From IMG/VR virus record IMGVR_UViG_2654587686_000018, positions 1 to 31,892 of that record: a DNA stretch of 31,892 bases; one strand, 5' to 3'. The translations under genes and the position numbers were made by a program. Below, one piece after another: positions 16,269 through 31,634 of the stretch (position 1 is the stretch's first letter; every line of letters begins with the position of its first letter). The stretch is from a virus (lineage: Duplodnaviria > Heunggongvirae > Uroviricota > Caudoviricetes). The notes beneath the pieces were generated by a model that had not been told where the DNA came from, made no database searches, and saw only the letters and a program-made list of their open reading frames with translations.

Positions 16269-16596
16269 AAAGCAGCAGCTGTTTACCGTCATGGTGGCCA
16301 ACCTGATCCACTGGGCAGAAGAACGCGGCTACCGGCTGACGTTTGGTGAAGCGTACCGCACCCCGGAACAGGCGGCGCTGAACGCGAAGAAGGGCAGCGG
16401 TATTTCGAACAGTCTGCACACCCAGCGTCTGGCCGTGGATTTTAACCTGTTTGTGAATGGCCAGTACCAGACCCGTACAGAGGACTATCTGCCGCTGGGT
16501 GAATACTGGGAATCACTGGGCGGAAGCTGGGGTGGGCGCTTCAAATCCAGACCGGATGGTAATCATTTCAGCCTGGAACATAACGGGGTGCGCTGA
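16255..16596 (+). CDS. endolysin, peptidase M15-type (zinc D-Ala-D-Ala carboxypeptidase fold)
   Basis: 113 aa with SLHTQRLAVDFNLF (H-x6-D) and a C-terminal HFSLEH motif typical of M15 peptidase endolysins. Confidence 0.8.
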   Translation: MTLSEKQQLFTVMVANLIHWAEERGYRLTFGEAYRTPEQAALNAKKGSGISNSLHTQRLAVDFNLFVNGQYQTRTEDYLPLGEYWESLGGSWGGRFKSRPDGNHFSLEHNGVR

Positions 16597-16976
16597 TGAG
16601 TCACGCGCAGTGGCTGGTTGTGGTGGCGCTGGCGTTTGTCTGGGGCTGGCTGACAGCTGACTGGCGGCGCGACAGTCTGGAGCTGGCAATCAATACGGCG
16701 GCGCAGGTGGCGGGTAATGAATCGCGAAAGGCTATGCAGGGCATTGCCAGTGATTCCGCCAGGGAGCTGGAAGATAAACTGGAGGCGCTAAGAAATGCGC
16801 AACCGCGAGAGATCCGCACGGAAGTGCTTAAGCCGGTTTTTACTAACAGGTGCCTGTCTGATGAGTTTGTCAGCATGTACAACAGCGCCGTCGCCGGTAC
16901 CGAACGTGCGTTATCAGGAAAACCTGAAAACACGATGCGCCACGCAGCTGCCGCGCCTGAACGGGGCAACAGGTAA
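16596..16976 (+). CDS. i-spanin (Rz-like)
   Basis: N-terminal hydrophobic anchor (WLVVVALAFVWGWL) followed by a charged, helical periplasmic domain; position after the endolysin. Confidence 0.65.
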   Translation: MSHAQWLVVVALAFVWGWLTADWRRDSLELAINTAAQVAGNESRKAMQGIASDSARELEDKLEALRNAQPREIRTEVLKPVFTNRCLSDEFVSMYNSAVAGTERALSGKPENTMRHAAAAPERGNR

Positions 16977-17094
16977 AGATGCAGCGGAACTGCTGACTGT
17001 TTACCTTGAAATATATGGCCAGTGTGCGGCGCGTCATAATCAATTAGTTGATGAAATTAATTTAAGAGAGCGTGTTATTTATGGAACAAATTAA
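16795..17094 (+). CDS. o-spanin (Rz1-like outer-membrane lipoprotein), overlapped architecture
   Basis: +1-frame ORF starting inside the i-spanin gene. Signal peptide ending in lipobox LSAC. Runs past the i-spanin stop. Confidence 0.55.
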   Translation: MRNRERSARKCLSRFLLTGACLMSLSACTTAPSPVPNVRYQENLKTRCATQLPRLNGATGKDAAELLTVYLEIYGQCAARHNQLVDEINLRERVIYGTN

Positions 17095-17338
17095 ACTGAG
17101 TGTCTGTGGGGTTGATATTGTTTTTGAACCTAATCAGACTGCTTATAATAAACTGATTAATGAAATGGCAATGGATAATAAAGTTGCCCCTGCAAATAAT
17201 TATCTGATGCGTATTGTTACCCCAGAAACGAAAGAAGCACTGATTGACGTATTAAAACGTCCGGGTGCAGCACTGCAACTGGTCAGTAAGGTTAATGATA
17301 TTTACGCGCCGGAACTGGAGATTGAAGTAAAAAACTGA
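17072..17338 (+). CDS. tail assembly chaperone (0-frame product, gpE/G-like)
   Basis: 88-aa ORF immediately upstream of the tape measure gene; ends just after a slippery heptamer. Confidence 0.6.
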   Translation: MLFMEQIKLSVCGVDIVFEPNQTAYNKLINEMAMDNKVAPANNYLMRIVTPETKEALIDVLKRPGAALQLVSKVNDIYAPELEIEVKN

Positions 17339-17529
17339 CAAAGCGAGTCCATGATATTGAACGAAATGGACTCGAACAGTATTTAATTCTCCGTCGTCAT
17401 TATTTACCACATGGTCAGGATTCTGTTGACGATATTGCTGCCGCTATATGGCTGGATAACCGTCACTGGGAATATACGGGAATAGCCGTGGCTAATGGCG
17501 TGGCTAAAGCATTTAAAGGCACTGAATGA
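17072..17529 (+). CDS. tail assembly chaperone -1 frameshift fusion product (gpE+E' / G-T-like)
   Basis: Slippery heptamer A_AAA_AAC at 17329-17335 is in register with the 0-frame codons. The -1 frame is closed by TGA at 17323-17325 just upstream and open from 17335 to a stop at 17527-17529, which overlaps the tape measure ATG. That frame contains no ATG. Confidence 0.55.
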
Positions 17530-19586
17530 AACAGTTAGATTTTACATTAAGCCTTATTGATAAATTGTCCCGCCCGTTAAAACAGGCGCAGGGCAACGTA
17601 ACGGGCTTTGCTGAAAAATCAAAAGAAGCCTTTATGCAGATTGGTGGCGGCGTTCTGGCGCTGGCGGGTACAGGGATGGCCATTAAAGGTGCGCTGATGC
17701 CCGCCATTGAAATGTATGACGCGCTGAATGATGCGGCTGCAAAAGGGATCGATGATTCTGCGCTTAAGGCCGTTCAGCGTGATGCGCTGCGCTTCAGTAC
17801 AACCTACGGTGCCAGTGCGGTGGAGTTCGTCCAGTCCACGGAAAGTATAAATGCGTCCATTGCCGGGCTGACCGGGAATGAACTGCCGAAAGTGACGAAA
17901 GTCGCCAATACCCTGGCGTTTGCGCTCAAATCCACCGCAGCGGAAACCGCTGAGTTTATGGGGCAGATGTTCGGTAACTTCTCCGCCGATGCCAACCGGC
18001 TGGGAAAGGTTGAGTTTGCTGAACAGCTGGCCGGAAAAATGGTGTACATGCGCAAAACCTTTGGCACGGAAATGGCCGCTATCAAGGATTTGATGGAAGG
18101 GGCGCGCGGTGTGGGTACCAACTACGGCGTGGGGCTGGATGAACAGCTGGCCGTGCTGGGACAGCTTCAGCGGACACTGGGAACGGAAGCCAGCAGCGCT
18201 TATGAAGGCTTTATGACCGGAGCCATTGAGGGCGGTAAAAAGCTGGGGCTGTCCTTCACGGATTCCACCGGCAAAATGCTGTCCATGCCTGAAATGCTGA
18301 TCAAGTTACAGGGCAAGTATGGCAAAAGCCTGGAAGGGAATCTGAAAGCCCAGGCTGAACTGGATGCGGCATTTGGTGACAGTTCGGCGGTGGTGAAACA
18401 CCTTTATGGCAATGTGGCGCTGCTTCAGCGCAATATCACAGAACTGGGCAGTACTGATGGTCTGAAGCGTACCCAGGAAATGGCGCAGAAAATGGTGAAG
18501 CCGTGGGATCGGTTTGTCGCAATCCTGAAGGCTATCCAGACCGTCATTGGACTGACGCTGATCCCGGTGCTCTATCCGGTTCTGAACCGACTGGCCGATA
18601 TGGGGCAGACTTTTGCCCGCTGGATGCAGCTATTTCCCAACATTGCGCGTGTTGTTGGTTATGCGGCAATGGCCTTACTCAGCTTTGCGGCTGTGGGCGC
18701 AGTCGCCAACATCGTGATGGGTGTCTCCAGATTCATCATGATGGGGTTGCGTGGGATCTGGGTGGCGCTGACGGCTGTCACGAAGGTTCACACCGCTGCT
18801 GTCTGGCTGGGGAACATTGCCGTGGTTGCCTGGAACGCCACGCTGAAATTTCTGCGCGGTACGTTGCTGGCGGTTCGTATGGCGGCAATGATGGCCGGGA
18901 TAGGTATCAATCTGATGAGCTGGCCGATCCTGCTGGTGATTGGTGCCGTTGCCTTACTTGCTGCCGGTTGCTGGCTGCTGATTAAACACTGGGACACGGT
19001 AAAGAACGCGGTCATGGATACCGCTGCATTTCAGACATGCGCCAGGGGGGTGGCATGGCTTGCCGGGGTGTTTGCTTCAGCCTGGCAGTTTATCAGCGAA
19101 GGCTGGAACAGTTTTATTTCCATGCTGACCGGGTTTTCTCCTTCCCAGGCATTAAGCGGGCTGGCCACGGGCATTGTGTCATTGTTTGATAATGTCTGGT
19201 TGTCCGTTAAAAACGGCTTTCTGAAATCATGGAACTGGATTGTAAGTAAATTAAATAACATTCCGGGTGTTGATATTGAACTGGCGGGTGCGGCTTCACC
19301 GGATATCGCTAAAAATGAAGCGGCAGTATTTCCAGTGCCGGAATTGAAGCAATCAGCGAAAGCTGACGGTGCTCTTGCTGCGGTGACACAAAATAATTAC
19401 GCCCCAGACCGGCTTTTAACCGGAGGCGAATTAAAAGGCATTGAAAAGGGCGGGATCACCAAAACGATTAACAGTAATGCCAAATCCGTAACCGACAATA
19501 GCCGGAAAATTGACACGGTAAACATTTATCCGAAAGAAATGATTACACCCGGTCAGTTAATGGAATTTCAGGAGCTGGGCGCATGA
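17526..19586 (+). CDS. tail tape measure protein
   Basis: 686 aa, alanine/glycine-rich with a central hydrophobic block; follows the chaperone frameshift pair. Confidence 0.85.
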   Translation: MKQLDFTLSLIDKLSRPLKQAQGNVTGFAEKSKEAFMQIGGGVLALAGTGMAIKGALMPAIEMYDALNDAAAKGIDDSALKAVQRDALRFSTTYGASAVEFVQSTESINASIAGLTGNELPKVTKVANTLAFALKSTAAETAEFMGQMFGNFSADANRLGKVEFAEQLAGKMVYMRKTFGTEMAAIKDLMEGARGVGTNYGVGLDEQLAVLGQLQRTLGTEASSAYEGFMTGAIEGGKKLGLSFTDSTGKMLSMPEMLIKLQGKYGKSLEGNLKAQAELDAAFGDSSAVVKHLYGNVALLQRNITELGSTDGLKRTQEMAQKMVKPWDRFVAILKAIQTVIGLTLIPVLYPVLNRLADMGQTFARWMQLFPNIARVVGYAAMALLSFAAVGAVANIVMGVSRFIMMGLRGIWVALTAVTKVHTAAVWLGNIAVVAWNATLKFLRGTLLAVRMAAMMAGIGINLMSWPILLVIGAVALLAAGCWLLIKHWDTVKNAVMDTAAFQTCARGVAWLAGVFASAWQFISEGWNSFISMLTGFSPSQALSGLATGIVSLFDNVWLSVKNGFLKSWNWIVSKLNNIPGVDIELAGAASPDIAKNEAAVFPVPELKQSAKADGALAAVTQNNYAPDRLLTGGELKGIEKGGITKTINSNAKSVTDNSRKIDTVNIYPKEMITPGQLMEFQELGA

Positions 19587-19912
19587 GTGAGAGTCTTTAT
19601 ATTGATTTGCTTATTCAGGGCGGTGATTTTGTTCTGAATACCGGATATGAACCTGAACTGTGTAATAACCGTAAAAGTATCGGACAGGACATTATTCATT
19701 CCATTATTGAAAGCGGGCTGGCAACGGAACTGATTGCCGAACGCAGCCCAACAATGCGGGCGGATATTTTTACCCGTATGGAATTACTGATTGAAGATGA
19801 TGAACGGATTATTCCGGGAACAGTGGAAATCAGTGAGGAAAGCCAGAAACGATTATGGATAACGGCCAGCACCTATGACTTTGGCGGCATATCTGCGCAG
19901 GTGGATTTATGA
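19583..19912 (+). CDS. putative baseplate protein (gpW-like position)
   Basis: 109 aa, coupled between the tape measure and the baseplate J-like gene. Confidence 0.45.
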   Translation: MSESLYIDLLIQGGDFVLNTGYEPELCNNRKSIGQDIIHSIIESGLATELIAERSPTMRADIFTRMELLIEDDERIIPGTVEISEESQKRLWITASTYDFGGISAQVDL

Positions 19913-21093
19913 CGGAAAAACCGCAGGTTGATTTTGAGGAAGTGGTGAAGGCCAGCGGGATGCCGGTGACGGAATCTGAAGTGCGGGATCGCTTTAATGC
20001 GATTGCGGCTGAGGAGGGCATGATCACTAACACATCCCGTATGTCACCGTTCTGGCGGTTAATTACGGCCATTGTGACTGCGCCGGTGATGTGGCTGAAA
20101 GAGGTTCTGGTGTCCACGGTGCTGGCCAATATGTTTGTGGCCACGGCCAGCGGGAGCATGCTGCGCCTGTTGGCCTGGGCGGTGAACGTGACGGCGAAAC
20201 CTGCCAGCGCTGCGCAGGGTGTGATCCGTTTCTTTAAGGAAGATGCCAGAGCCGTTGTGACGGTGAAGGCCAGAACGGTTATCCAGACTGAACGCATCAA
20301 CGGCAGGGTGTACGAACTGGCGACCACGGGCGATGTGGTGATCCCTTCCGGCACGGACAGCGCATTGCTGCCGGTGAAAGCCACCGGAACCGGGGGAGCC
20401 TATAACCTTGCGCCAGGGTATTACCGCATTTTGCCTGTGGCCGTGGATGGTATCAGCCATGTGGCCAGCGAGGAAAACTGGCTGACGGTGCCGGGTGCCG
20501 ATGAAGAAAGCGATGATGAACTGCGTGAACGCTGCCGCAACCAGTTCAATCTGGTGGGCAATTACCACACGGATGCGGTTTACCGTTCAATGATTGCCGG
20601 TGTTGCCGGGCTGAGTATTGACCGGATTTTCTTTGAGCATGAAGCGCCGAGGGGACCGGGTACCGCAAACGCCTATCTGTTGCTGGACAGTGGGGTGGCT
20701 TCCGCACCGTTCGTGAATGCGGTGAATGATTACATCAACACGCAGGGACATCACGGCCACGGCGACGATATGCAGTGTTACGCCATGCCGGAAACCCGTC
20801 ACGATCTGGCTGTGACGGTGTTCGTCAGAAATCTGGCCAACCTGACAGATGACGAACGGAACAGCCTGAAGGCTGGCATTGAAAACATGATCCGCTGTGC
20901 TTTTCGTGAAAACGCTGATTTTGACGTCAGAAAGACGTGGCCATATTCGCGGTTCTCGTTTTCTCAGTTGGGGGGGGAGATCCACAAAACCTTTGCGCTG
21001 GCGGATTCGCTGTCCTTTTCACTGGGTGACATTACCAGTGAGCTGAATGTGCCGCGTCTGAAGTCACTGGTAGTGAGTCTTGAGAATGAATGA
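19909..21093 (+). CDS. baseplate assembly protein, J-like
   Basis: 394 aa in the W-J-I-fibre order typical of P2-type baseplates; weak sequence resemblance to gpJ. Confidence 0.55.
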   Translation: MTEKPQVDFEEVVKASGMPVTESEVRDRFNAIAAEEGMITNTSRMSPFWRLITAIVTAPVMWLKEVLVSTVLANMFVATASGSMLRLLAWAVNVTAKPASAAQGVIRFFKEDARAVVTVKARTVIQTERINGRVYELATTGDVVIPSGTDSALLPVKATGTGGAYNLAPGYYRILPVAVDGISHVASEENWLTVPGADEESDDELRERCRNQFNLVGNYHTDAVYRSMIAGVAGLSIDRIFFEHEAPRGPGTANAYLLLDSGVASAPFVNAVNDYINTQGHHGHGDDMQCYAMPETRHDLAVTVFVRNLANLTDDERNSLKAGIENMIRCAFRENADFDVRKTWPYSRFSFSQLGGEIHKTFALADSLSFSLGDITSELNVPRLKSLVVSLENE

Positions 21094-21673
21094 GTTCATG
21101 AAAAAGCTGGCCGGGATGGTGCTTCCTTCCTGGATGAATCAGGGGGAGCCGAACAAGCTGCTGAAAACAGCCCGGCGATTCTGGGCGGAGGTTTACGGCT
21201 GGATAACCTGGCCACTGAACCAGTTTGATCCGCTCACCTGCACACCGGCATTACTGAACCTGCTGGCGTATGACCGGGACATAACCCGCTTTGATGGTGA
21301 GCCACTGAGTCTGTTTCGTAAGCGTGTGGCGTATGCCTTTGTCAATGCCCGTGATGCCGGTTCCGTTGAGGGATTTATCAACATCTTTGAACGGCTGGGT
21401 ATTGGGTATGTGGAGCTGCGGGAGCGCCAGCCAGGTATTGACTGGGATGTGATCTTGGTACGTGTGACGGACGGCCAGATAGCAGACAACACGCAGCTGC
21501 TTATCCAGATAATCCGGCAGTACGGGCGAACATGCCGCCGCTATCAGTTTGAGGTGATCACATCGGAAAAAATGGCTATCAGAGCCGGATGGGATCAGGG
21601 GGAATATGTGGTTTATCCGGCTTCGTTAGCAGGGACGGAAACCCACAGCGCGACATTCAGCGCAGGTTTGTAA
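21080..21673 (+). CDS. tail protein I-like (baseplate)
   Basis: 197 aa; LLNLLAYDRD and RKRVAYAFVNARDAGSVEGFINIFERLGIGYVEL resemble P2 gpI. Confidence 0.6.
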   Translation: MRMNEFMKKLAGMVLPSWMNQGEPNKLLKTARRFWAEVYGWITWPLNQFDPLTCTPALLNLLAYDRDITRFDGEPLSLFRKRVAYAFVNARDAGSVEGFINIFERLGIGYVELRERQPGIDWDVILVRVTDGQIADNTQLLIQIIRQYGRTCRRYQFEVITSEKMAIRAGWDQGEYVVYPASLAGTETHSATFSAGL

Positions 21674-21683
21674 GGAATTTTTT

Positions 21684-23693
21684 ATGTCACAGACAGTTAT
21701 CACGCTGGCGTTTGAACACTGGAAAGCGCAGCAGGGTGCGACCGGCGAGCCGGTGTTACTGGATGAATTTGTGTTTGCGAATGTGCCAGGGCTGAACCCG
21801 GATATTCCCGTTGATCGCAGTGAAGCACTGCCGCCTTTGGAACAGATTGTGCACCGGCAACCTGTTACCCGCACTGGAGTGGTGAATGAAAATGGCGTGG
21901 TGTATTCCGCTGTTCTGGGCGCTGACGTGGGCGATTTCAGTTTCAACTGGATCGGACTGCTGAATAAGGCCAGCGGAACTCTGGCCATGATTGTTCATGC
22001 GCCTGTACAGCAAAAGCTGAAAACAGCGGAAGGGCAGCAGGGGAACGTGCTTACCCGTTCGTTTCTGATGGAGTACAACGGCGCACAGACTGAAACCGGG
22101 ATTACTACACCGGCTGAAACCTGGCAGATTGATTTCACGGCGCGTATGGCCGGAATGGATGAGCGTCAGCGCCTGGAAAATGCGGATATTTACGGCGCTG
22201 CGGCATTCTTTGGCGATGGCTGGATGGTCGGTAAAACGGGTAATCAGTTCTTTGTCACCAACGGCACTGGCTACGTGGCAGGGCTGCGTACATCACTGGC
22301 CGCAAATCAGAATATCACCGTGACGACAAAACCGGTCAAAGTCTGGCTGGATGTGTGCTGGACGGGATCGCTTACCAGCGTGTGGAATACGCAGTGTAAA
22401 ATTACCGTTACGGAAAACCTGGCTGATTACGTGCAGAACGGTGTGCAGCATTATGTGTTTGCTGTGGCCAGCATTGATGTGAATGGCAATATCACGGATT
22501 TACGGCCAAAAGGGACGCTAAATGAGCAGGTGGCCAGCGATGCGCTGAAAAAGCATGAGCAGTCCCGAAATCATCCTGATGCCACGACCAGCGAGAAGGG
22601 ATTCACTCAGTTAAGTAACGCGACAGACAGCGCCAGTGAAGGGCAAGCTGCAACACCGAAGGCGGTTAAAATAGCGATGGATAATGCAAACGCGCGTCTT
22701 GCAAAAGAGCGTAATGGTGCAGACATCCCGAATCCACCGTTATTTGTTCAGAATATTGGTTTGCAGGATACGGTTAACAAGGCGGATGGCGCAGTACAGA
22801 GAACAGATGTTCAGGCATCGCGTGATGATGTAACACCTGGCCGTCTGCTTACTAATGGCAGCGCAATTGCAACCCGTTCAGTTGCAGCATCGAATGCAGA
22901 ATGGGCTTTTACAAATGACTCAAACAGCTTGCCAGCTAACGCAGTGAGCTTTGTTTATTCGTCTGCCAGAAATTCACCCGGATATGAGGCGTCAGTTCTG
23001 GATTATTCCGGGCTTTCTGGTGAGTACCGAACACAAATTGCAGCAAGTTATACCGCTAACAAAATCAGTTTCAGGACCAAAAACGGCGACAATAATAACT
23101 GGAATAACTGGTTTGAGTTTTACCATACTGGAAATAAACCTACCCCGCAGGATATAGGTGCTCTGCCGGCATGGGTACTGGGTGGTGTCAGAGATGGAGG
23201 CAGTTTCGATGGTTTTACGACGCCGGGTTTTTATTGGGTAAGCATTGATAATGCAGAAACCGTCGCAGGTATGCCGTCACGTACCAATGGAACCCATTGC
23301 TATGGATATGGTTCTTTACTTGTTATTCCGGCCGGAAATGCAATCACGCAAGTGTACATCAGTGATGCCGGAGATTTTGCTACAAGGCAATGGTGGGGTA
23401 ACTGGCATCCCTGGAAATCATCCTATAGTCCGGTATCTCAACCCAATCCCGGTGATATTGGCGCTTATACGAAAGCAGAGTGTGACGCCCGTTATGTTGC
23501 TGACGTTCAGTTAGGAACGGGAACGCGGGTTACAACATGGAATTCCGCAGGAGACTGGCCTAACTCTCCAGGCTATGTCATTACGTCAGTAAATAAAGAC
23601 TGGATGGATCAAAACCTTGACGGGGTGACTTATGCTCCACTCCAGAAAAGAATAGGTAATCAGTGGTATACCGTTATTGGGGGGACGCCATAA
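21684..23693 (+). CDS. tail fibre protein
   Basis: 669 aa; conserved fibre motif SEKGFTQLSNATDSASEGQAATPKAVKIAMDNA; distal part compositionally AT-richer. Confidence 0.8.
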   Translation: MSQTVITLAFEHWKAQQGATGEPVLLDEFVFANVPGLNPDIPVDRSEALPPLEQIVHRQPVTRTGVVNENGVVYSAVLGADVGDFSFNWIGLLNKASGTLAMIVHAPVQQKLKTAEGQQGNVLTRSFLMEYNGAQTETGITTPAETWQIDFTARMAGMDERQRLENADIYGAAAFFGDGWMVGKTGNQFFVTNGTGYVAGLRTSLAANQNITVTTKPVKVWLDVCWTGSLTSVWNTQCKITVTENLADYVQNGVQHYVFAVASIDVNGNITDLRPKGTLNEQVASDALKKHEQSRNHPDATTSEKGFTQLSNATDSASEGQAATPKAVKIAMDNANARLAKERNGADIPNPPLFVQNIGLQDTVNKADGAVQRTDVQASRDDVTPGRLLTNGSAIATRSVAASNAEWAFTNDSNSLPANAVSFVYSSARNSPGYEASVLDYSGLSGEYRTQIAASYTANKISFRTKNGDNNNWNNWFEFYHTGNKPTPQDIGALPAWVLGGVRDGGSFDGFTTPGFYWVSIDNAETVAGMPSRTNGTHCYGYGSLLVIPAGNAITQVYISDAGDFATRQWWGNWHPWKSSYSPVSQPNPGDIGAYTKAECDARYVADVQLGTGTRVTTWNSAGDWPNSPGYVITSVNKDWMDQNLDGVTYAPLQKRIGNQWYTVIGGTP

Positions 23694-24250
23694 TGCAAAA
23701 TATTAGAAATTTCAGACTGGTGGATATGCCGAAAAACCGTGAGAAAACACCGGGTGAAATAAATATAGGTAGCCTGTTTTTAGAATCGGAAGACGGGCTG
23801 GACTGGTACGAGTGCCAAGCGTTTTATTCAGATGATACGGCCAAAATCATGTATGACGGATCTGGCATTATCTGGGGAGTTGTTAATAAACCTGTACCAC
23901 AGCGGAATAACACTTATGCGGTGTCGATGTTATGGCCGGTGAATATGTCTGTTGCCGAGCTGGATGTTGCGTTATGCCCTGATGATTGTTTAGGCGATGG
24001 TACATGGAGATATATTGATGGAAAAATCGAGAAAATCCCTACTGATTACGTTGCTATTGCTGAAAGTAAAAAATCCCGACTAATGAATGAAGCAAATGCT
24101 GTGATAGCGCCGCTTGAACGGGCTGTAAAACTGGGGATTGCCACGAGTAATGAGATTGCAGAGTTGGAGGCATGGGAGCGATATAGCGTCATGGTTAACC
24201 GGGTCGATACTACAAAACCTGAATGGCCAGAGGTGCCTGATGTGGCGTGA
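23693..24250 (+). CDS. tail fibre assembly protein
   Basis: ATG overlaps the fibre stop (TAATG); about 186 aa, the usual size and position for a fibre assembly chaperone. The track ORF starts 30 nt upstream, inside the fibre gene. Confidence 0.65.
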   Translation: MQNIRNFRLVDMPKNREKTPGEINIGSLFLESEDGLDWYECQAFYSDDTAKIMYDGSGIIWGVVNKPVPQRNNTYAVSMLWPVNMSVAELDVALCPDDCLGDGTWRYIDGKIEKIPTDYVAIAESKKSRLMNEANAVIAPLERAVKLGIATSNEIAELEAWERYSVMVNRVDTTKPEWPEVPDVA

Positions 24251-24965
24251 AGCGCGTCTGGCTTTCACAGACTCACTGGCCGCGCTGAATTGTTCCGTTG
24301 TTCCGGCGCATCCGTGGATAAACGGTCTGGGGCAACAGACGGATAACGGGGCATACCTCAGCCCGGTGAATGCCGTCCGCTATTTTGCTGAAAGGCTGGC
24401 CGGAACGGGCGGGAATGCCGATGTGATGATCATGATGGTGACAGGCCAGACGCATGAGAATTTTATGACCCGTCTCAACGGTCTGGTCGATGTTTTTCCG
24501 GCACCGGCATTCACGCAGGTCAAGCGCCTGGCACAATCCGCAGCGACGCTGGCCATCGAAAAAATGCAGATCCCCGCTAAAACCGGGGCGGGGTTGCCGG
24601 TGGCCATTCCGCTGTCTGTGCCAACCAGCAGGGTGGCATTATCTGCGGCGGCTGTCAGCCAGGCACAAAAAGCGGCCAGTGCGGGATTCAGCCTGGACGG
24701 ACTAAAGCAGCAACTGGGCGAGTTCGCGCAGCTGCGTGACAGCCTGATCAGTGATGTGGCCAGCGGGCTGAATGATTTGCAGGGGAAAAGTGCCAGAGCA
24801 TGGGTGTTTACCAGCACCGGCGATACAGCCACCACGCTGCTGGAACTGGTAAAGGATATCCCGCAACCGTCAGCCGTCTATACAGCGGCGGTGATGCTGG
24901 TCGGTGACAATCTGGATGGAATAAAGGGAATGATTCATGACTTCGATCCCAACGCTGGCGCTTAA
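24240..24965 (+). CDS. hypothetical tail/baseplate-associated protein
   Basis: In-frame ATG at 24240 overlapping the upstream stop; 241 aa, alanine-rich; function not recognised. Confidence 0.45.
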   Translation: MWREARLAFTDSLAALNCSVVPAHPWINGLGQQTDNGAYLSPVNAVRYFAERLAGTGGNADVMIMMVTGQTHENFMTRLNGLVDVFPAPAFTQVKRLAQSAATLAIEKMQIPAKTGAGLPVAIPLSVPTSRVALSAAAVSQAQKAASAGFSLDGLKQQLGEFAQLRDSLISDVASGLNDLQGKSARAWVFTSTGDTATTLLELVKDIPQPSAVYTAAVMLVGDNLDGIKGMIHDFDPNAGA

Positions 24966-25482
24966 TGGTGAGGCTATCCAGCTGAAAAATATGCGCGTGA
25001 CCGTCTCGCAGCAGTTTCAGGATAAAGACCAGTCCGGCCAGACAAGTGCCACAACCAAATCAGAACAGGGGGCAAAAGGGAAAGAGCTGCGTATCAGTGG
25101 CGAAATTCCGTTTAAAAGCCCGGAGATCCTGAAGCGTATTTTCGAACTGGCCAGCGCCACGGATGCCGGAGGCAACCGCCAGAAATACCGCGTGGCGCAT
25201 GAAGTGGCCAGAGCCGTGAATTTTCGTGAGGCGACATTCAGCGGAATGCTTGATGCCCCGCAGCAGGACGGGAAAATGGCCTGGCTGGTCACGTTTACGC
25301 TGGCAGAACATATCAGCGTGCAGGAAAAGCGGGAAGCCAGGGCAACAGGCAAAACGTCTGCCAAAAAACAGACGGCCGGTAATGCGGGACAATCCGGTGG
25401 CCAGAGTGCCGGGGAAGATGAAGAAAAACTGACGTGGTTTGAAAAACGGGTACTGAAACCCGTCAATGATGCTTTGGGTTAA
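24937..25482 (+). CDS. hypothetical tail-associated protein
   Basis: 181 aa, start overlaps the previous gene, SD (aaaggga) upstream. Confidence 0.45.
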   Translation: MTSIPTLALNGEAIQLKNMRVTVSQQFQDKDQSGQTSATTKSEQGAKGKELRISGEIPFKSPEILKRIFELASATDAGGNRQKYRVAHEVARAVNFREATFSGMLDAPQQDGKMAWLVTFTLAEHISVQEKREARATGKTSAKKQTAGNAGQSGGQSAGEDEEKLTWFEKRVLKPVNDALG

Positions 25483-27185
25483 TGATGAAACCAGTTAAAC
25501 GCCTGTACCTTTCAACGGATGAAGTTCACCTGGCGGATGCCAGCCTGGTGCTGGAGCTGAACAGCTGCGGCCGGGGATTTATCACTGTACAGACAGCCAC
25601 GGATTACACCGGGAAACTGGTGCGGCTGGATGTGGGGTATTCCGATCTGCTTTTGCGCTGGTTTACTGGTTATGTGGAACGCTCACAACCCGCCGAAAAC
25701 GGTTTTCAGCGTCTGTTTGTGCGCGAGCTGGTCGGCGTGTTTGAAAGGATGTGGCCATGTTCATTTCAGCACCCCACTTTGCGCAAGGTAGCCAGCTGGC
25801 TGGAGGAAAACAGCGGAATTGCTGTCAGTGTGCCGGATGCCCCTTACAGCGATAAACCGATCCCCCATTTCACCCACAACGGCACAGGCTATCAGTTGCT
25901 GAATAATCTGGGCAGGGCGTTCAGTATCCCGGATTACATCTGGTACCAGCTGCCGGATGGTTCCCTGCATGTGGGCGGCGCGGAAAAAGCGATGTTTGCC
26001 GGTCGCCCGGTCGATATCCCGGCAGAGTTTAGCCTGGGGGCGGCTGGCGGTAATTCCATGACGCTGCCGGTGATCCAGAGTCTGCGGCCGGGTGTGGAGC
26101 TGAACGGGGAGCGTGTGACCAAAGTTCATCTGACCAATGACACAATGGCTGTTACCTGGACACCCAGAAACCGTGCAACAGGTCAGCCATTACAGAAAAC
26201 ACCTGCACAGCGCCAGATTGAAAGCAATTACCCGGAACTGGCTTCCGGGCTGCATCTGCCAAAACTGGCCAGAGTGGTGGCACCCAGCGAGGCTGTGAAA
26301 AGTGGTAATTTTGCCGATCCGTTCCGGCCGCGCTATGCCGTTGATGTGCAGCTGCTTGATGCAGACGGCAACCCGGACAACCAGACACCGGTTTATTCTG
26401 CGGTGCCGCTGCCGGTACCTATGGCCGGGAATGACTCTGGCATGTTCCAGTTCCCGCCAGAAGGGACGCTGGTTGAAGTGGCGTTTACCGGAGGTCGCCC
26501 GGATAAACCGTTTATCAGGCAGACGTTGCCAGATGGTACCAGTCTGCCGGATGTTAAACCCGGCGAGCAGCTGCAACAGCAACGGGCGGAAGTGTCGCAA
26601 CGTGTTACCCAGGCTGGCGATTGGGTACGGCAGACCGATCAGACCATCAGCGAAACATCGATGGCGCGGACGGTTAAAGCCGATACGGAACAGCGTGATT
26701 TGGTCAGCCGTGAAACCACGGTTAAAGCCACCGACAAAACCACGGTTCTGGGTACCGCCACCCTGTTGGCCGGTGCCATCCAGCAGGTCAGCGCCGGGGA
26801 TTTTAGCCAGGCCGTGAAGGGCAACAGACTGGCCAGCATTGAAGGCAATGACGAAACCGATATTTCCGGGAAACAGTCCACTAAGGTGGCCGGAGCCGTG
26901 GATGTTGATGTGGGGGGAACCCTGACTGAAAAGATTGCTGCATTACGTAAATCGGTGGCGGCGGGCGGTCAGCAGATTATGGGACCAACCGTCCATATTG
27001 GCAGTGAGAGCGTCAACACGCTGACTATGATGCTGGACACTATTGATTTACTGGCCGAGCTGGCGCAGCAGTGTGCGAGCCATTCACACCCCAGTGTTGG
27101 TACGCCAACCAATGCCGGGGCATTCACACAGACGGCGGAGAAGGCCGGACAGACCCGAAGTAAGTACCAGAAAATAATCGCCTGA
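25482..27185 (+). CDS. baseplate central spike protein (gpV / gp5 / VgrG-like OB fold) with C-terminal extension
   Basis: FPPEGTLVEVAFTGGRPDKPFI matches the spike OB-fold motif (FxPxxGxxVxVxFxxGxxDxPxI). C-terminal HSHP is reminiscent of the HxH tip of P2 gpV. Confidence 0.5.
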   Translation: MMKPVKRLYLSTDEVHLADASLVLELNSCGRGFITVQTATDYTGKLVRLDVGYSDLLLRWFTGYVERSQPAENGFQRLFVRELVGVFERMWPCSFQHPTLRKVASWLEENSGIAVSVPDAPYSDKPIPHFTHNGTGYQLLNNLGRAFSIPDYIWYQLPDGSLHVGGAEKAMFAGRPVDIPAEFSLGAAGGNSMTLPVIQSLRPGVELNGERVTKVHLTNDTMAVTWTPRNRATGQPLQKTPAQRQIESNYPELASGLHLPKLARVVAPSEAVKSGNFADPFRPRYAVDVQLLDADGNPDNQTPVYSAVPLPVPMAGNDSGMFQFPPEGTLVEVAFTGGRPDKPFIRQTLPDGTSLPDVKPGEQLQQQRAEVSQRVTQAGDWVRQTDQTISETSMARTVKADTEQRDLVSRETTVKATDKTTVLGTATLLAGAIQQVSAGDFSQAVKGNRLASIEGNDETDISGKQSTKVAGAVDVDVGGTLTEKIAALRKSVAAGGQQIMGPTVHIGSESVNTLTMMLDTIDLLAELAQQCASHSHPSVGTPTNAGAFTQTAEKAGQTRSKYQKIIA

Positions 27186-27196
27186 CCATCCCATCA

Positions 27197-27227
27197 GCCC
27201 GCGCATAATGCGGGCTTTGTCGTTTGC
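27197..27227 (+). terminator. intrinsic terminator after the tail operon
   Basis: GCCCGC / GCGGGC stem at 27197-27215 followed by a T-rich tract (TTTGTCGTTTG). Confidence 0.55.
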
Positions 27228-27290
27228 TCAGTTCCTTGTTAGGATTGTTGCGATAGGATTATTGCTGACTCAAAGGATAAGAAAAGGGAT

Positions 27291-27623
27291 ATGAAAAATT
27301 TCATTATGTTAGCTGTAGGCGCAGCAGTTTCATTCAATGTGTTAGCCGCTGAAGTTTTTACTGTGCCAACGGATACGAAGGCTAGCTATACGGTCTTAGA
27401 GAAGACGCGTACCGGTGATATGGCTACGATAACAACCAAGAGAGAGGGACCATCTGGAGTGTCATATTCTAAGCGCTTGTACGACTGTACGGCCTCGACG
27501 GTCAAGTATCTTGGAAGCGGTGACACTATAGAGCAAATGAATGGCTCAGCACCAGATCCAAATATGGCACCTATAATTGACCGTTCAATTGCATACTATG
27601 TTGGTCAGAAAGCCTGCCGATAA
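27291..27623 (+). CDS. moron: small secreted/periplasmic protein of unknown function (110 aa)
   Basis: Signal-peptide-like N-terminus MKNFIMLAVGAAVSFNVLA-AEV. Two cysteines in the mature part. AT-richer than the tail genes. Bracketed by two terminators. Confidence 0.6.
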   Translation: MKNFIMLAVGAAVSFNVLAAEVFTVPTDTKASYTVLEKTRTGDMATITTKREGPSGVSYSKRLYDCTASTVKYLGSGDTIEQMNGSAPDPNMAPIIDRSIAYYVGQKACR

Positions 27624-27665
27624 CCATAGCTTCATATCAGTTGATATAAATTGAGTATTCCGCTA

Positions 27666-27688
27666 ACCCGCATAATGCGGGTTTTTTT
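27666..27688 (+). terminator. intrinsic terminator after the moron
   Basis: ACCCGC-ATAAT-GCGGGT hairpin followed by TTTTTTT. Confidence 0.7.
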
Positions 27689-28191
27689 GTGCCTGTTAAC
27701 AGGCGGCACAGAACGCACACTGTACGCATTGCAATGCTCAGATACCACACGAGACACATCAATAGGATCAAGTGCACAGCGAAGCACTGACGGCTCTACA
27801 TGCTGACAAAAGAAATACTTCACAGACAAAAACGGCACTACACCGCACCCGCCTGCGGTTTCTGGATCGATAAAATTTTTCAGTTTTCTTTTCCTACAAA
27901 CCAGACCGCCGGACAGCGCCAGTTCTGGCTGATTGCGGGAAATCTCCAACTGAAAAAATTGAAAGGAATTTCAGTGATTTTCAGTAAAAAGGATCTCTCA
28001 AGAAATTGAAGGATTGTGTAAGTTACAGATAAATAATGGAAAAAATAATTTTAGATGATTGCTTGGATGCTAATAGCGCAGGGAATTATTTATAACGAAT
28101 AGCCCGCAGTGTTAAGCTGGGGGCGGGCTAGAGTATGCATGTTGGCATTTTACCTGCTGAAAAAATGAAGAATCTAACGTCGTAAATAAAA

Positions 28192-28554
28192 TTACTCTGT
28201 TTTAGGGCAGACTATTCCTTCTTGTCTCATTTTGGCTATAAAACCAACCCCATCCCCTGTAAGGTGACTTCCATCATCTTCCAGGATACCGTCATCTCTG
28301 CCGGCACTGAGTGGAGCGCTATAAATTTCCTTATGGAACAACAGGCAAGCTCTCCCAACACCTTGCTTTTTGCATTTATCAAGGCCTAAATTCGTAATGT
28401 GATACAGTACATAAGGTGGATGTGGAAGCTCAACCTCTCTAAACACAATGCTACCAACGGCCTTGCCATCAAGACGAACTTCAATTTCAAGGCCTGAGTG
28501 ATTAACTAGTTGATACTCAACACCTCTTTTTGATTCGAAAATAGAAGTTTCCAT
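28192..28554 (-). CDS. hypothetical protein, possibly a minimal GNAT-like fold (second gene of an AT-rich cassette)
   Basis: 120-aa ORF with SD GGGAG about 9 nt upstream. Segment KKQGVGRACLL resembles the acetyl-CoA-binding motif A (Q/R-x-x-G-x-G/A) of GNAT enzymes, but the protein is short for that fold. Confidence 0.5.
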   Translation of the reverse strand: METSIFESKRGVEYQLVNHSGLEIEVRLDGKAVGSIVFREVELPHPPYVLYHITNLGLDKCKKQGVGRACLLFHKEIYSAPLSAGRDDGILEDDGSHLTGDGVGFIAKMRQEGIVCPKTE

Positions 28555-28582
28555 ATCTTTTCTCCCTATATGTAAGATAAAT

Positions 28583-28981
28583 TTATTTCTCTTCGCACTC
28601 CTGCTTAGTTTTGTTATTGATAGATATTGCTGCGCATTTGTCTAGTAATAACATGCACTTATCAATATCATCTGCTTTTCTGAGTTTTACTCGTGTTACA
28701 CCTTGGTTGTTGTCAAGTGTGGAACATATCATTTCAATTTCTATGTCATTTCGATTGAATAATCCCATAATAGTTTTAGCTACCTCTCTGCTTTTTTCTA
28801 CAATATCAAACACTAAGGATAGCTTATCTGGTGCTTTTTCAGAAAAACAAAGCACTTTGCTCAGAGGCAAATTATTATGAGAAAAGTGTCCTTTGACTTC
28901 CTCTAGAAGTTCTTGGGAGGTGTAGATGGTGATTCCTGCGAATTGTCCTAGGTGGAGAGCATTTTGTCTTGTTCTGGTCAT
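28583..28981 (-). CDS. hypothetical protein (first gene of an AT-rich two-gene cassette)
   Basis: 132-aa ORF with SD AAGGA about 7 nt upstream; 28-bp gap to the downstream gene; no family recognised. Confidence 0.5.
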   Translation of the reverse strand: MTRTRQNALHLGQFAGITIYTSQELLEEVKGHFSHNNLPLSKVLCFSEKAPDKLSLVFDIVEKSREVAKTIMGLFNRNDIEIEMICSTLDNNQGVTRVKLRKADDIDKCMLLLDKCAAISINNKTKQECEEK

Positions 28982-29117
28982 GAAGAATCCTTGAACAAAT
29001 TGTTATCAAGATTTGTTATTGATGTCGGCAGAGAAAAATGTGTCGCCACTTTGCCGCCACAGGTTAGATTGAAGAGTTTTAACTATCTGATTTGTATAGG
29101 GGATGATAACAGGCAAC

Positions 29118-29160
29118 AAAAAACCCATCAACCTTGAACCGAAATGGCGGGGTTGATGGG
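29118..29160 (-). terminator. putative terminator downstream of ybjL
   Basis: 10-bp inverted repeat CCCATCAACC / GGTTGATGGG at 29124-29160 (long loop) with AAAAAA on the plus strand at 29118-29123 (U-run on the minus transcript). Confidence 0.35.
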
Positions 29161-29272
29161 CTCCACAAAATGGGGACATCAAAGAAAAGCAGTGGCACTA
29201 ATTAAGACTGATGCCCTGCGGAAAAGTTCTGCGGTTGTGCAAAAAAATTTCATTTTCAGGGCAACTTCAGTT

Positions 29273-30958
29273 TTATCCTAATCCTGGCCATACCATGACG
29301 ATGATTGTCCCTGCCAGCGTCAGCAGGACGTTGGCGATTGCATAGGTGCCCGCATAGCCCAGCGCCGGGATGTTACTGCGAGCTGTATCACTGATGATCT
29401 CCATTGCCGGCGCGCAGGTGCGTGCGCCCATCATTGCGCCGAACAACAGTGCGCGGTTCATTCGCAATACATAAGCACCGAACAAGAAACAGATAACCAC
29501 GGGCACCAGACTGACAATCAATCCGGCAATCAACATTTGACCGCCAATCGCGCCCAGGCCGTTATTAATACCGCTACCGGCGCTCAGACCAACGCCTGCC
29601 ATAAACACCATCAAGCCGAACTCTTTCACCATGCTTAATGCACCTTGCGGAATGTAACCGAAGGTCGGGTGGTTAGCACGCATAAAGCCCAGCATAATTC
29701 CGGCGAATAACAACCCGGCAGCGTTCCCCATGCCGAAACTGAATGTGCTGAACTGGAAGGTGATCATCCCGATCATCAGCCCAATAACAAAGAAGGCGCA
29801 GAATGCCAGCAGGTCAGTGACCTGGCTGTGAATCGAGATAAAGCCGATGCGATCGGCGATGGTTTTTACGCGGCGGGCATCGCCGCTGACTTGTAAAACG
29901 TCACCTTTGTTAAGCACGACGTTGTCATCTATCGGCATCTCAATCTGGCTACGAATGACGCGGTTAAGGAAGCAACCGTGATCGGTCAACTTCAGTTGTG
30001 CGAGACGTTTGCCCACGGCGTTATGGTTTTTAACGACCACTTCTTCAGTGACGATACGCATGTCGAGAAGGTCACGATCGAAAACTTCTTTGCCGTTACG
30101 GAAGCTGGGATCGAGTCGTGCGTGGGCGTCGGGATAGCCTACCAACGCTATTTCATCGCCCATTTGTAGCACAGCATCACCGTCTGGATTCGCCAGAATC
30201 CCGTTACGTCGAATACGTTCAATGTAGCAGCCAGTTTGTCGATAAATACCCAGTTCACGCAGATTTTTGCCGTCGGTCCAGGCCACCAGCTCCGGGCCGA
30301 CGCGGTAGGCGCGGATCACCGGTAAATAAACCTTACGGTTGGCATCAGTGTCCAGACCACGTTCGCGGGCGATTTGCTGGGCGCTGGTCTGTAAGTCCTG
30401 ATGCTGCAATTTCGGCAAGTAACGCGCACCAACAATCAAACTCACCAGACCGATTAAATAGGTTAAGGCATACCCGAGGCTCAGATTATCCAGTGCCAGT
30501 GAGAGCTGCCTGCTTTCCATGCCGGAATGACGCAGTGTATCGCCAGCACCGACCAGAACCGGTGTCGACGTCATAGAGCCAGCTAACATACCGGCCGTCA
30601 GGCCAATATCCCAGCCAAACAGCTTACCTAACCCTAAGGCGATCACCAGCGCACTGCCAACCATCACCAGTGCTAACATTAGGTAATTTTTCCCATCGCG
30701 AAAAAAAATGGAAAAAAAGTTCGGTCCGGCTTCGACCCCGACGCAGAAAATAAACAGCATAAAGCCAAGATTAAGCGCGTCGGTGTTAATGCTGAAATGT
30801 TGTTGGCCTAATAACAGCGATACGACTAAAACGCCAATGGAATTACCCAGTTGGATCGAACCAAGTCGTAATTTCCCGAGACATAGCCCAAGCGCGAGGA
30901 CCACAAATAATAACAGAATGTAATTCCCATTTAACAATTCGGCGACGTTTATATTCAC
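29273..30958 (-). CDS. ybjL: putative transport protein YbjL (AAE-family transporter)
   Basis: 561 aa; N-terminus [33 protein letters not shown] matches E. coli YbjL as I recall it; multiple membrane helices. Confidence 0.9.
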
Positions 30959-31227
30959 GGAGGCTAACTTCTTGTTTACTAGTAAGCTGTTGAAAGAAAT
31001 GGTAATTTACGATAATGTTTTTTACCAGAATTCAGGGCGCAGATTCATTCAGCGCACCTAAACGATAGTAAAGTAACAATATATTTTACTAGTGTAATCA
31101 CATTAGGTATCAACGGCTATATGAATTGCGTTGGCCTATATTAGCATGGAATGCGAAGCGGCTTTATCTTACTGAACGCCACACTGGCGAAAATTGTGTT
31201 CGATAGACGCAGTGTCAGGAGGAACGA

Positions 31228-31605: not shown

Positions 31606-31606
31606 A

Positions 31607-31623
31607 GCCCTCAACGCGAGGGC
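31607..31623. terminator. hairpin between convergent ybjM and grxA
   Basis: GCCCTC-AACGC-GAGGGC stem-loop in the 29-bp gap between the two convergent stops. Confidence 0.45.
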
Positions 31624-31634
31624 TTGTCAGACGA

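What the first reader, a model, noticed from the sequence alone, without database searches (positions are those of the whole stretch)
22700..24250. Compositionally distinct distal tail fibre and fibre assembly region
From about 22.7 kb the fibre gene and the following assembly gene are visibly more AT-rich than the N-terminal fibre region and the rest of the tail module. This is consistent with horizontal exchange of the receptor-binding cassette, the usual host-range determinant. No invertase or inverted duplicate of the fibre 3' end is present, so switching is not by DNA inversion here.
Basis: seen in the sequence. Interest (0 to 1): 0.35.

Follow-up and report, generated by a model that had tools for sequence, protein, structure and literature searches.

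The report
Swapped AT-rich tail-fibre tip cassette
The outer half of this E. coli prophage's tail-fibre gene and most of its helper (assembly) gene form an AT-rich block that has been exchanged with other phages, which is the ordinary, long-known way such phages change which bacteria they attach to.

Summary
A GC3 change-point places the AT-rich block at 22637-24160 (GC3 0.39 inside, 0.62 outside). Only 0.2-0.5% of same-size prophage segments have GC this low.

The block matches a homology break. The window is an ESSI-2-like (Peduoviridae) prophage next to ybjL in E. coli. Its closest E. coli relative (about 95% nt) loses homology between about 22650 and 22801 and regains it at 24100. ESSI2_ev015-type relatives break at 22513 and 24224.

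The replaced unit is fibre residues about 366-669 plus the fibre-specific N-terminal domain of the assembly protein. It is 87-96% nt identical to Citrobacter contigs. Its tip and assembly gene are 68-70% nt identical to ST64B, Fels-2 and SJ46.

Both junctions lie in conserved motifs. The left one is the GLQ(D/E)TVN linker, the position where phage Mu carries its gix inversion site. The right one is the conserved C-terminal domain of the assembly protein.

There is no invertase, inverted repeat or second cassette.

One caveat applies. Every allele at this locus, and P2 H/G and Mu S/U, shows the same AT-rich drop. So the composition marks a shared cassette pool, not a datable import.

This is an ordinary new member of a known kind.

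The parts
21684..22514 (+). Fibre aa 1-277. This is the N-terminal baseplate-anchoring domain and is conserved across the phage lineage.
   Evidence: PF12571 matches aa 3-158, E 7e-33. phrog_8239 matches aa 1-277. It is 84% nt identical to ESSI2_ev015 and L002 and 92-95% to L001. GC3 is 0.58.
22515..22742 (+). Fibre aa 278-353. This is a Mu Sc-like shaft segment containing the Phage_fiber_2 repeat. It is shared with L001 but not with ESSI2_ev015-type relatives.
   Evidence: PF03406 matches aa 301-341, E 7e-19. Fibre aa 293-374 align to Mu S aa 105-186 in 5yvq/8ju3. Homology to L002/L003 ends at 22513. Identity to L001 decays from 0.94 to 0.79 across 22500-22750.
22743..22801 (+). Left junction: the conserved linker FVQNIGLQDTVNKADGAVQR. 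It is the position homologous to the Mu G-segment boundary (gix).
   Evidence: L001 homology ends at 22801 and Citrobacter L010/L016 homology starts at 22780-22781. Mu gix lies on the codons FIQNLGLQE, and the window site matches gix at 18/26 with no partner site. The same linker occurs in L001, Mu S aa 171, P2 H aa 380 and ST64B sb24 aa 102. In many relatives homology ends at aa 363-374.
22802..23467 (+). Fibre aa 374-594. This is the variable distal region and the presumed receptor-recognition part.
   Evidence: It is 95.9% nt identical to C. freundii contig L016 (22780-23467) and 87% to Citrobacter sp. Cf115 L010. aa 286-495 are 56% identical to the fibre of a classical P2-type C. freundii prophage. 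There is no Pfam match. GC3 is 0.39.
23468..23693 (+). Fibre aa 595-669. This is the C-terminal tip domain of Mu S/S' type, starting at the GDIGAYTK motif. It is inherited together with the assembly protein's N-terminal domain.
   Evidence: The L016 homology stops at 23467 while L010 continues. The tip is 72-73% aa identical to ST64B sb24 and a Salmonella prophage fibre, and 67-70% to the tips of ST64B, Fels-2 and SJ46 by tblastn. It matches the Mu S' tip in 8ju3 at E 2.9e-14.
23693..24099 (+). Assembly protein (TFA) aa 1-136. This is the variable, fibre-specific N-terminal domain and is part of the exchanged cassette.
   Evidence: Caudo_TAP PF02413, E 2.9e-29. Mu U (5yvq_B), E 1.1e-30. It is 86% aa identical to L010 TFA1 and 68% to ST64B sb25 over the full length. 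The TFAs of backbone relatives align only from aa 116-120 onward. GC3 is 0.39.
24100..24250 (+). TFA aa 137-185. This is the conserved C-terminal helical domain and the right junction. Its end overlaps the start of the next gene (24240).
   Evidence: Homology to L001 resumes at 24100 (91-93% nt) and to L002/L003 at 24224. It is 70-78% nt identical to P2 G, Mu U, D108 U, SfMu and D6. GC is 0.527. The domain roles come from PMC9608196, citing North et al. 2019.
22637..24160 (+). AT-rich block as delimited by composition alone.
   Evidence: The GC3 change-point analysis gives 0.391 inside and 0.617 outside, with 2dLL 83.3 against a shuffle maximum of 21.6.

Best explanation
The AT-rich block is the exchangeable receptor-recognition cassette of a P2 H/G - Mu S/U type tail-fibre system. 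It sits in an ESSI-2-like (Peduoviridae, Quadragintavirus-like) prophage of E. coli.

The fibre is a chain of modules:
- aa 1-277: a lineage-specific anchor.
- aa 278-365: a Mu Sc-like shaft ending in the conserved linker GLQDTVN.
- aa 366-594: a variable distal part.
- aa 595-669: a Mu S'-like tip.

The assembly protein has two parts. Its variable N-terminal domain (aa 1 to about 120-136) is matched to the tip. Its conserved C-terminal helical domain covers about aa 120-185.

The segment from the linker to the start of the conserved assembly-protein domain was replaced as a unit. I infer that this happened by homologous or relaxed-homology recombination within those two conserved motifs. The partner would be a phage or prophage of the Citrobacter/Salmonella gene pool.

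The cassette itself is a sub-mosaic, with an internal joint at GDIGAYTK (nt 23467).

The lower GC3 is the common composition of this cross-family cassette pool.

Functionally (inferred), the cassette sets adsorption specificity, most likely to an LPS-core structure as in Mu and P2. Specificity is fixed in this phage, because there is no inversion switch.
For: Shown here:
- Composition shift.
- Homology breakpoints at about 22650-22801 and 24100 against the 95% relative L001, and at 22513 and 24224 against L002/L003.
- Cassette identity of 96% (22780-23467) and 87% (22781-24228) to Citrobacter contigs.
- No megablast match to the cassette in 5,426 complete E. coli genomes.
- Tip plus TFA 68-70% nt identical to ST64B, Fels-2, SJ46 and 118970_sal3.
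- Protein-level mosaic map.
- Recurrent homology ends at aa about 307 and 363-374 among 120 relatives that share the N-terminal domain.
- The linker is conserved in Mu S, P2 H, ST64B and L001 and coincides with the Mu gix position.
- Mu S, S' and U are the only solved homologues.
- The same AT-rich drop occurs in other alleles and in P2, Mu and ST64B.
- The identical fibre protein is found on 15 contigs. Two of these are different E. coli chromosomal sites (near ybjL and near mntR), which suggests a phage that actively lysogenises E. coli.

From the literature:
- The TFA N-terminal domain is variable and binds the fibre; the C-terminal domain is conserved and drives trimerisation (PMC9608196).
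- The Mu S/U cassettes determine host range through LPS (PMC4406740).
- ESSI-2-like prophages are commoner in Citrobacter, Salmonella and Enterobacter than in E. coli (PMC6969025).
Against: - The direction and timing of the exchange are not resolved. All alleles are AT-rich, so this allele could be the older one in the lineage.
- The Citrobacter relatives are known only from 1.5-3 kb contigs that break at the linker, so the donor phage type is unknown.
- The recombination mechanism is inferred from junction positions only.
- No receptor or adsorption data exist.
- The AF2 monomer model of aa 366-669 was unusable (mean pLDDT 49).
Confidence: 0.85

Rival explanations
1. The polarity is reversed. 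This cassette is ancestral to the prophage lineage, which may itself have come from Citrobacter, and the relatives L001, L002 and L003 are the ones that acquired new cassettes. The AT-richness would then say nothing about a recent import into this genome.
For: All alleles are equally AT-rich. The backbone N-terminal fibre domain also occurs at 94-96% aa identity in C. freundii (P0121, P0122). Cassette identity to C. freundii (96% nt) is similar to backbone identity to the nearest relative (95%). ESSI-2-like prophages are reported as rare in E. coli and commoner in Citrobacter.
Against: P0121 from C. freundii diverges from the window fibre after aa 363, so that Citrobacter copy is not collinear. 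No collinear Citrobacter copy was found. Exchange at this locus is still required under this reading; only who changed differs.
Confidence: 0.3
2. The cassette is a relic of an invertible G/C-type segment. It would have been captured from a Mu- or P1-like phage through the gix-homologous site, with the invertase and the alternative cassette lost afterwards.
For: The left junction is exactly at the position homologous to the Mu G-segment boundary. The shaft before it is Mu Sc-like, and the tip is closer to Mu S' than to S. ST64B, which carries the nearest characterised tip and TFA, retains a pin/gin-like fragment.
Against: The window site matches gix at only 18/26. That is the level expected from conservation of the encoded peptide. 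There is no partner site, no invertase and no second cassette. The same linker is also present in non-invertible fibres such as P2 H and L001.
Confidence: 0.08
3. There was no transfer. The low GC would reflect constraints on the protein or on translation of the distal fibre and chaperone, for example amino-acid composition or slow codons for co-translational folding.
For: The drop recurs in every allele and in P2, Mu and ST64B. A functional constraint could also produce that pattern.
Against: The drop is in GC3, not GC2 (GC2 0.525 is above the flanks). The compositional edges coincide with sharp losses of homology to a 95% relative. The cassette is 87-96% nt identical to sequences in another genus while absent from 5,426 E. 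coli genomes.
Confidence: 0.04
4. The fibre 3' end is diversified by targeted hypermutation (a diversity-generating retroelement) rather than by cassette exchange.
For: None found.
Against: No template-repeat copy of any part of 22500-24250 exists in the window (longest extra match 25 nt). No reverse-transcriptase domain is present in the genes scanned. The allele is 99.65-100% identical over window 21001-25000 in the six contigs retrieved.
Confidence: 0.01

Closest known systems
Bacteriophage P2 genes H and G (tail fibre and tail-fibre assembly). This is the classical case of horizontal transfer of fibre genes among unrelated phages: Haggard-Ljungquist, Halling & Calendar 1992, J Bacteriol 174:1462, seen here only as a citation.
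   Same: The gene order is the same: J, I, fibre, TFA. The fibre length is the same (669 aa). Both have the PF12571 N-terminus, the GLQETVN linker and a Caudo_TAP chaperone. The compositional step is the same: P2 H aa 1-300 has GC3 0.59, H aa 301-669 has 0.44 and G has 0.40.
   Different: The backbone is ESSI-2/HP1-like, with DUF2590 in place of gpW and with the HP1_ORF34 and spike genes downstream of the TFA. The distal sequence is unrelated to P2 H except for the shaft repeat and a weak tip match (36% over 64 aa). The TFA is only 39% identical to G.
Phage Mu S/U and S'/U' in the invertible G segment, with Gin (structures 5YVQ and 8JU3).
   Same: The shaft before the junction is about 75% identical to the end of Mu Sc. 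The junction is at the same codons as gix. The tip resembles Mu S'. The TFA resembles U (E 1e-30), with the same division into a variable N-terminal and a conserved C-terminal domain.
   Different: There is no gin, no inverted gix pair and no alternative cassette, so specificity is fixed. The N-terminal anchor is P2/HP1-type, not Mu-type. The middle module (aa 374-594) has no Mu counterpart.
Escherichia phages ESSI2_ev015, ev040, ev129 and ev239 (Quadragintavirus) and Cronobacter phage ESSI-2.
   Same: The tail and baseplate module is collinear at 83-84% nt (77.5% for Cronobacter phage ESSI-2), with the same fibre anchor domain.
   Different: Their fibres are 524-525 aa and diverge after aa 277-307. 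Their TFA (195 aa) aligns only over the last 60 or so residues.
Salmonella phage ST64B sb24/sb25, and the equivalent genes of Fels-2, SJ46 and 118970_sal3.
   Same: These are the nearest characterised relatives of the tip and the assembly gene: 68-70% nt, 72% aa for the tip and 68% aa for the TFA.
   Different: They are different phage types, and their fibres share nothing with aa 374-594 of this one.

Membership tests
Caudo_TAP tail-fibre assembly proteins (Mu gpU, P2 gpG, lambda Tfa) | Sequence match to PF02413 above the curated threshold, and to Mu U | tested here: met
   102.3 bits against a cut-off of 22.1. 5yvq_B E 1.1e-30 over aa 3-183. phrog_136 E 2.7e-53.
Caudo_TAP tail-fibre assembly proteins (Mu gpU, P2 gpG, lambda Tfa) | Gene lies immediately downstream of the fibre gene it serves | tested here: met
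   The fibre stop and the TFA start overlap by 1 nt at 23693.
Caudo_TAP tail-fibre assembly proteins (Mu gpU, P2 gpG, lambda Tfa) | Two modules: a variable fibre-binding N-terminal domain and a conserved helical C-terminal domain | tested here: met
   The TFAs of backbone relatives align only from aa 116-120 onward. TFAs that align over nearly the full length accompany related tips. The domain roles come from the literature.
Caudo_TAP tail-fibre assembly proteins (Mu gpU, P2 gpG, lambda Tfa) | Required for folding/trimerisation of the fibre and binds its tip | not testable with these tools
   Needs co-expression or a multimer model. The monomer AF2 model was poor.
P2 H / Mu S type long tail fibres | N-terminal tail-collar fibre domain (PF12571) and Phage_fiber_2 repeat (PF03406) | tested here: met
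   E 7e-33 and E 7e-19.
P2 H / Mu S type long tail fibres | C-terminal tip homologous to the Mu S/S' tip that is bound by the TFA | tested here: met
   8ju3 (S') aa 389-484, E 2.9e-14. 5yvq_A aa 434-502, E 9e-5.
P2 H / Mu S type long tail fibres | Binds an LPS-core receptor and determines host range | not testable with these tools
   Inferred from Mu and P2 only.
Invertible fibre switches (Mu G/Gin, P1 C/Cin, e14 P/Pin) | Serine invertase gene next to the fibre genes | tested here: not met
   No resolvase/invertase domain in the Pfam scans of the tail region or in the called genes of identical contigs.
Invertible fibre switches (Mu G/Gin, P1 C/Cin, e14 P/Pin) | Pair of inverted crossover sites (gix-type, 26-34 bp) flanking the variable part | tested here: not met
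   No window match to gix at 7 or fewer mismatches. The homologous site is 18/26. The longest inverted repeat is 27 nt at 78%, and it lies elsewhere.
Invertible fibre switches (Mu G/Gin, P1 C/Cin, e14 P/Pin) | Second promoterless fibre 3' end plus TFA in the opposite orientation | tested here: not met
   blastn and tblastn self-searches find no second copy.
Invertible fibre switches (Mu G/Gin, P1 C/Cin, e14 P/Pin) | Constant/variable boundary at the conserved QN(L/I)GLQ(E/D)TVN linker | tested here: met
   The junction at 22743-22801 aligns codon for codon with the Mu G-segment boundary.
Horizontally exchanged fibre cassette (mosaic module in the sense of Haggard-Ljungquist 1992) | Homology to close relatives breaks at the edges of the compositionally distinct block | tested here: met
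   Homology breaks at about 22650-22801 and 24100. The GC3 change-point is 22637-24160.
Horizontally exchanged fibre cassette (mosaic module in the sense of Haggard-Ljungquist 1992) | The cassette or its parts are found in phages of other types or other hosts | tested here: met
   Citrobacter contigs at 87-96% nt. A classical P2-type C. freundii prophage. ST64B, Fels-2, SJ46 and Mu.
Horizontally exchanged fibre cassette (mosaic module in the sense of Haggard-Ljungquist 1992) | Phylogenetic incongruence between cassette and backbone across many genomes | not tested
   Only three backbone relatives were compared in full. A survey of 120 proteins shows diverse C-terminal architectures on a conserved anchor.

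The most novel reading that the evidence does not exclude
The most novel reading not excluded is a recent cross-genus shuffle. This rare allele is absent from 5,426 complete E. coli genomes, yet it is 96% (over 22780-23467) and 87% (over 22781-24228) nt identical to Citrobacter sequences. In Citrobacter those sequences sit in tandem arrays of start-less 'linker - fibre 3' end - TFA' cassettes. Each cassette begins with a gix-like AAAAC-N4-GTTTA site directly after the preceding stop codon. The window's fibre would then be one cassette drawn from such a silent array, which would be a cassette-reservoir switching system distinct from DNA inversion. It could also give the phage a dual E. coli/Citrobacter host range.
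Probability: 0.12. Interest if true: 0.5.

Novelty: new member of a known kind. Interest (0 to 1): 0.2.

Why it matters
It matters little beyond annotation. The work gives exact module boundaries that could be used to engineer or predict host range in ESSI-2-like coliphages: the linker at 22743-22801, an internal joint at 23467, and the assembly-protein domain boundary at about 24100.

It also shows that the AT-rich signature is a property of the whole P2/Mu-type cassette pool and cannot be read as evidence of a recent import.

The only lead of wider interest lies outside the window: the tandem cassette arrays in the Citrobacter contigs.

Tried and rejected
- AlphaFold2 monomer model of fibre aa 366-669 with a 42-sequence alignment. 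Mean pLDDT was 49 and pTM 0.28; only the last 70 or so residues exceeded 60. It was too poor for a fold search, so none was run.
- Megablast of 22700-24250 against 5,426 complete E. coli genomes: no match.
- Scan of one genome per species (genome contigs) and of IMG/VR viral contigs with fibre aa 374-669. Only remote relatives turned up (25-39% identity: Xenorhabdus, metagenome-assembled genomes and unnamed viral contigs), so no donor context was obtained.
- Pfam at E <= 5 on aa 374-669: nothing.
- Search for gix-like sites in the window at up to 7 mismatches: none. The relic-invertible-segment idea was therefore kept only as a low-probability rival.
- Diversity-generating retroelement: rejected, because there is no repeat of the fibre 3' end.
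- Amino-acid composition as the cause of the low GC: rejected on GC2 against GC3.
- PADLOC on the three small genes downstream of the spike gene: only sub-threshold Cas1 noise.
Full report
CONTEXT

The right flank of the window (29273-31892: ybjL, ybjM, grxA) is 99.6% identical to E. coli chromosomes. The stretch up to about 27.2 kb is a prophage.

Its early genes are:
- a CI-type repressor,
- a CII/CP76 regulator,
- a Dam-type methylase,
- a gpA replication protein,
- a portal protein,
- a terminase.

Its tail and baseplate module is:
- tape measure, 17526-19586,
- DUF2590, 19583-19912,
- baseplate J, 19909-21093,
- gpI-like, 21080-21673,
- fibre, 21684-23693 (669 aa),
- Caudo_TAP assembly protein, 23693-24250 (185 aa),
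- a gene of unknown function, 24240-24965,
- HP1_ORF34 baseplate protein, 24937-25482,
- a spike-like protein, 25482-27185.

The nearest isolated phages are the Escherichia ESSI2_ev phages (Peduoviridae, Quadragintavirus) at 83-84% nt. The nearest E. coli prophage is in strain JNE25-001 at about 95%.

THE OBSERVATION

It is correct and statistically solid.

- GC is 0.455-0.463, against 0.529 +/- 0.03 for same-size prophage segments. That puts it at the 0.2-0.5 percentile.
- The drop is at synonymous positions. GC3 is 0.39, against 0.58-0.65 in the neighbouring genes. GC2 is unchanged or higher.
- A likelihood change-point on GC3 from gene J to the spike gene picks 22637-24160. Its 2dLL of 83 compares with at most 21.6 in shuffles.
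- The last 150 nt of the assembly gene return to backbone composition, with GC 0.527.

The block is the longest AT-rich island of the tail module but not the only one. 16977-17525 has GC 0.40 and 19000-19950 has 0.46.

WHAT IT IS: BREAKPOINTS

The compositional edges are homology breakpoints.

- Against the 95% relative L001, an ungapped alignment holds from 16252 to 22801. Identity decays from 0.94 (22500-22600) to 0.73 (22700-22800) and then falls to noise. Homology resumes at 24100.
- Against L002 and ESSI2_ev015, homology stops at 22513 and resumes at 24224.
- In 120 proteins sharing the N-terminal anchor, alignments to this fibre end repeatedly at aa about 307 and aa 363-374.

WHAT IT IS: RELATIVES OF THE REPLACED SEGMENT

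- It has no megablast match in 5,426 complete E. coli genomes.
- Its best relatives are partial Citrobacter proteins at 87-88% aa.
- At the DNA level, 22780-23467 is 95.9% identical to a C. freundii contig (L016), and 22781-24228 is 87% identical to Citrobacter sp. Cf115 (L010).
- L016 diverges after 23467, at the motif GDIGAYTK, so the cassette is itself mosaic.
- The tip (aa 605-668) and the assembly gene are 68-70% nt identical to ST64B, Fels-2, the P1-like SJ46 and 118970_sal3. At protein level the tip is 72% and the TFA 68% identical.
- aa 286-495 are 56% identical to the fibre of a classical P2-order prophage of C. freundii.

ANATOMY OF THE JUNCTIONS

Left junction. Fibre aa 293-374 align with Mu S aa 105-186 in the solved structures 5YVQ and 8JU3. 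The annotated Mu G-segment boundary, and the 26-bp gix site I located in the Mu record, fall on the codons FIQNLGLQE. These align with the window's FVQNIGLQD at 22743-22769. So the left junction is the classical constant/variable boundary of this fibre family.

The same linker is present in L001, P2 H (aa 380) and ST64B sb24 (aa 102). In each case different sequence follows it. The window's copy matches gix at only 18/26 and has no partner site.

Right junction. It lies at the start of the conserved C-terminal part of the assembly protein. The TFAs of backbone relatives align only from aa 116-120 onward. By contrast, TFAs that accompany related tips align over nearly the full length.

This fits the published two-module model. 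The variable N-terminal domain binds the fibre, and the conserved helical C-terminal domain drives trimerisation (PMC9608196, citing North et al. 2019).

NO SWITCH

- Inverted repeats in 19.0-29.5 kb are at most 27 nt.
- blastn (word size 7) and tblastn self-searches show no second fibre 3' end or TFA on either strand.
- No invertase domain was found.

WHAT THE AT-RICHNESS MEANS

The three relatives carry three other cassettes, and all of them are AT-rich too (GC3 0.40-0.46, against 0.55-0.65 in their flanks). The Citrobacter cassettes have GC3 0.41-0.45.

P2 itself shows the same step. H aa 1-300 has GC3 0.59, H aa 301-669 has 0.44 and G has 0.40. Mu Sv/U/Sv'/U' have 0.41-0.47, and ST64B sb24C/sb25 have 0.40-0.45.

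The signature therefore belongs to the cross-family pool of exchangeable cassettes. It supports 'this is the exchangeable module'. It does not date the event or give its direction.

HOW IT MOST LIKELY WORKS

Shown:
- the module map,
- the junction positions,
- the co-inheritance of the tip with the TFA N-terminal domain.

Inferred:
- exchange by homologous or relaxed-homology recombination at the two conserved motifs, between co-resident phages or prophages;
- the cassette fixes adsorption specificity, probably to an LPS-core structure as for Mu and P2;
- the TFA N-terminal domain folds and stays with the tip.

The identical fibre protein occurs on 15 contigs. Two of these are different E. coli chromosomal locations (ybjL side and mntR side), and the six contigs retrieved are 99.65-100% nt identical over window 21001-25000. 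This suggests the phage, with this fibre, lysogenises E. coli.

COMPARISON AND NOVELTY

This is the pattern first described for P2 H/G and shared with Mu, P1 and lambda-type fibres (Haggard-Ljungquist et al. 1992, seen here only as a citation).

The allele itself is uncharacterised. The best match in the phage collection is 37% aa over 64% of the distal part, apart from the tip. I file it as a new member of a known kind, of low interest.

Rivals are scored in their own sections: reversed polarity, a relic of an invertible segment, coding constraint, and a diversity-generating retroelement.

DEAD ENDS

- The AF2 monomer model was unusable (mean pLDDT 49).
- Scans of species-representative genomes and of IMG/VR gave only remote hits.
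- Pfam finds nothing in aa 374-594.

Noticed in passing
L010 1-60, 1480-1560 and 2990-3048; L016 1130-1200 (Citrobacter contigs, not the window): In Citrobacter sp. Cf115 and C. freundii the related cassette belongs to a tandem, same-orientation array of 'linker - fibre 3' end - TFA' units. Each next unit starts without an obvious start codon directly after the previous stop: TAA AAC GTT GGT TTA GTA GAA, encoding NVGLVETIN. This repeated linker has the AAAAC-N4-GTTTA geometry of gix/hix sites. The short contigs begin and end in it. It may be a reservoir of silent cassettes. The genomic context and any recombinase are unknown.
   Followed up: partly
window 27186-29272: This is an AT-rich (GC 0.41) variable cargo region between the spike gene and ybjL. 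It holds three small ORFs: 27291-27623 (+, with a hydrophobic N-terminus that looks like a signal peptide), 28192-28554 (-) and 28583-28981 (-). None has a significant Pfam or PADLOC match. Relatives carry different genes at this position: a PIN plus a STAS-like pair in L001, and DUF6338 plus a zinc-ribbon protein in L004.
   Followed up: partly
L004 compared with the window/L005: The same prophage, with the identical fibre protein and 99.7% nt identity over window 21001-25000, lies next to mntR-ybiR-ldtB-ybiT in one E. coli assembly and next to ybjL-ybjM-grxA in the window. So there are two chromosomal contexts about 35 kb apart on the K-12 map (map distance from my own knowledge).
   Followed up: partly
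window 16977-17525 and 19000-19950: These are two further AT-rich islands inside the tail module: the tail assembly chaperone region (GC 0.40) and the tape-measure 3' end plus DUF2590 (GC 0.46). Unlike the fibre cassette, they are conserved with the relatives, apart from a gap at 19285-19418 against ESSI2_ev015. That gap corresponds to a tape measure 31 aa longer (686 aa against 655 aa).
   Followed up: no
window 3313-4182: The prophage encodes a D12-class N6-adenine DNA methyltransferase (PF02086, E 1.7e-66) between the regulatory genes and the gpA replication gene.
   Followed up: no
L019 6266-6487 (phage ST64B): ST64B carries the nearest characterised tip and TFA. It keeps a short pin/gin-like 'DNA binding protein' fragment downstream of its fibre genes. 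This hints that its cassette once sat in an invertible segment.
   Followed up: no
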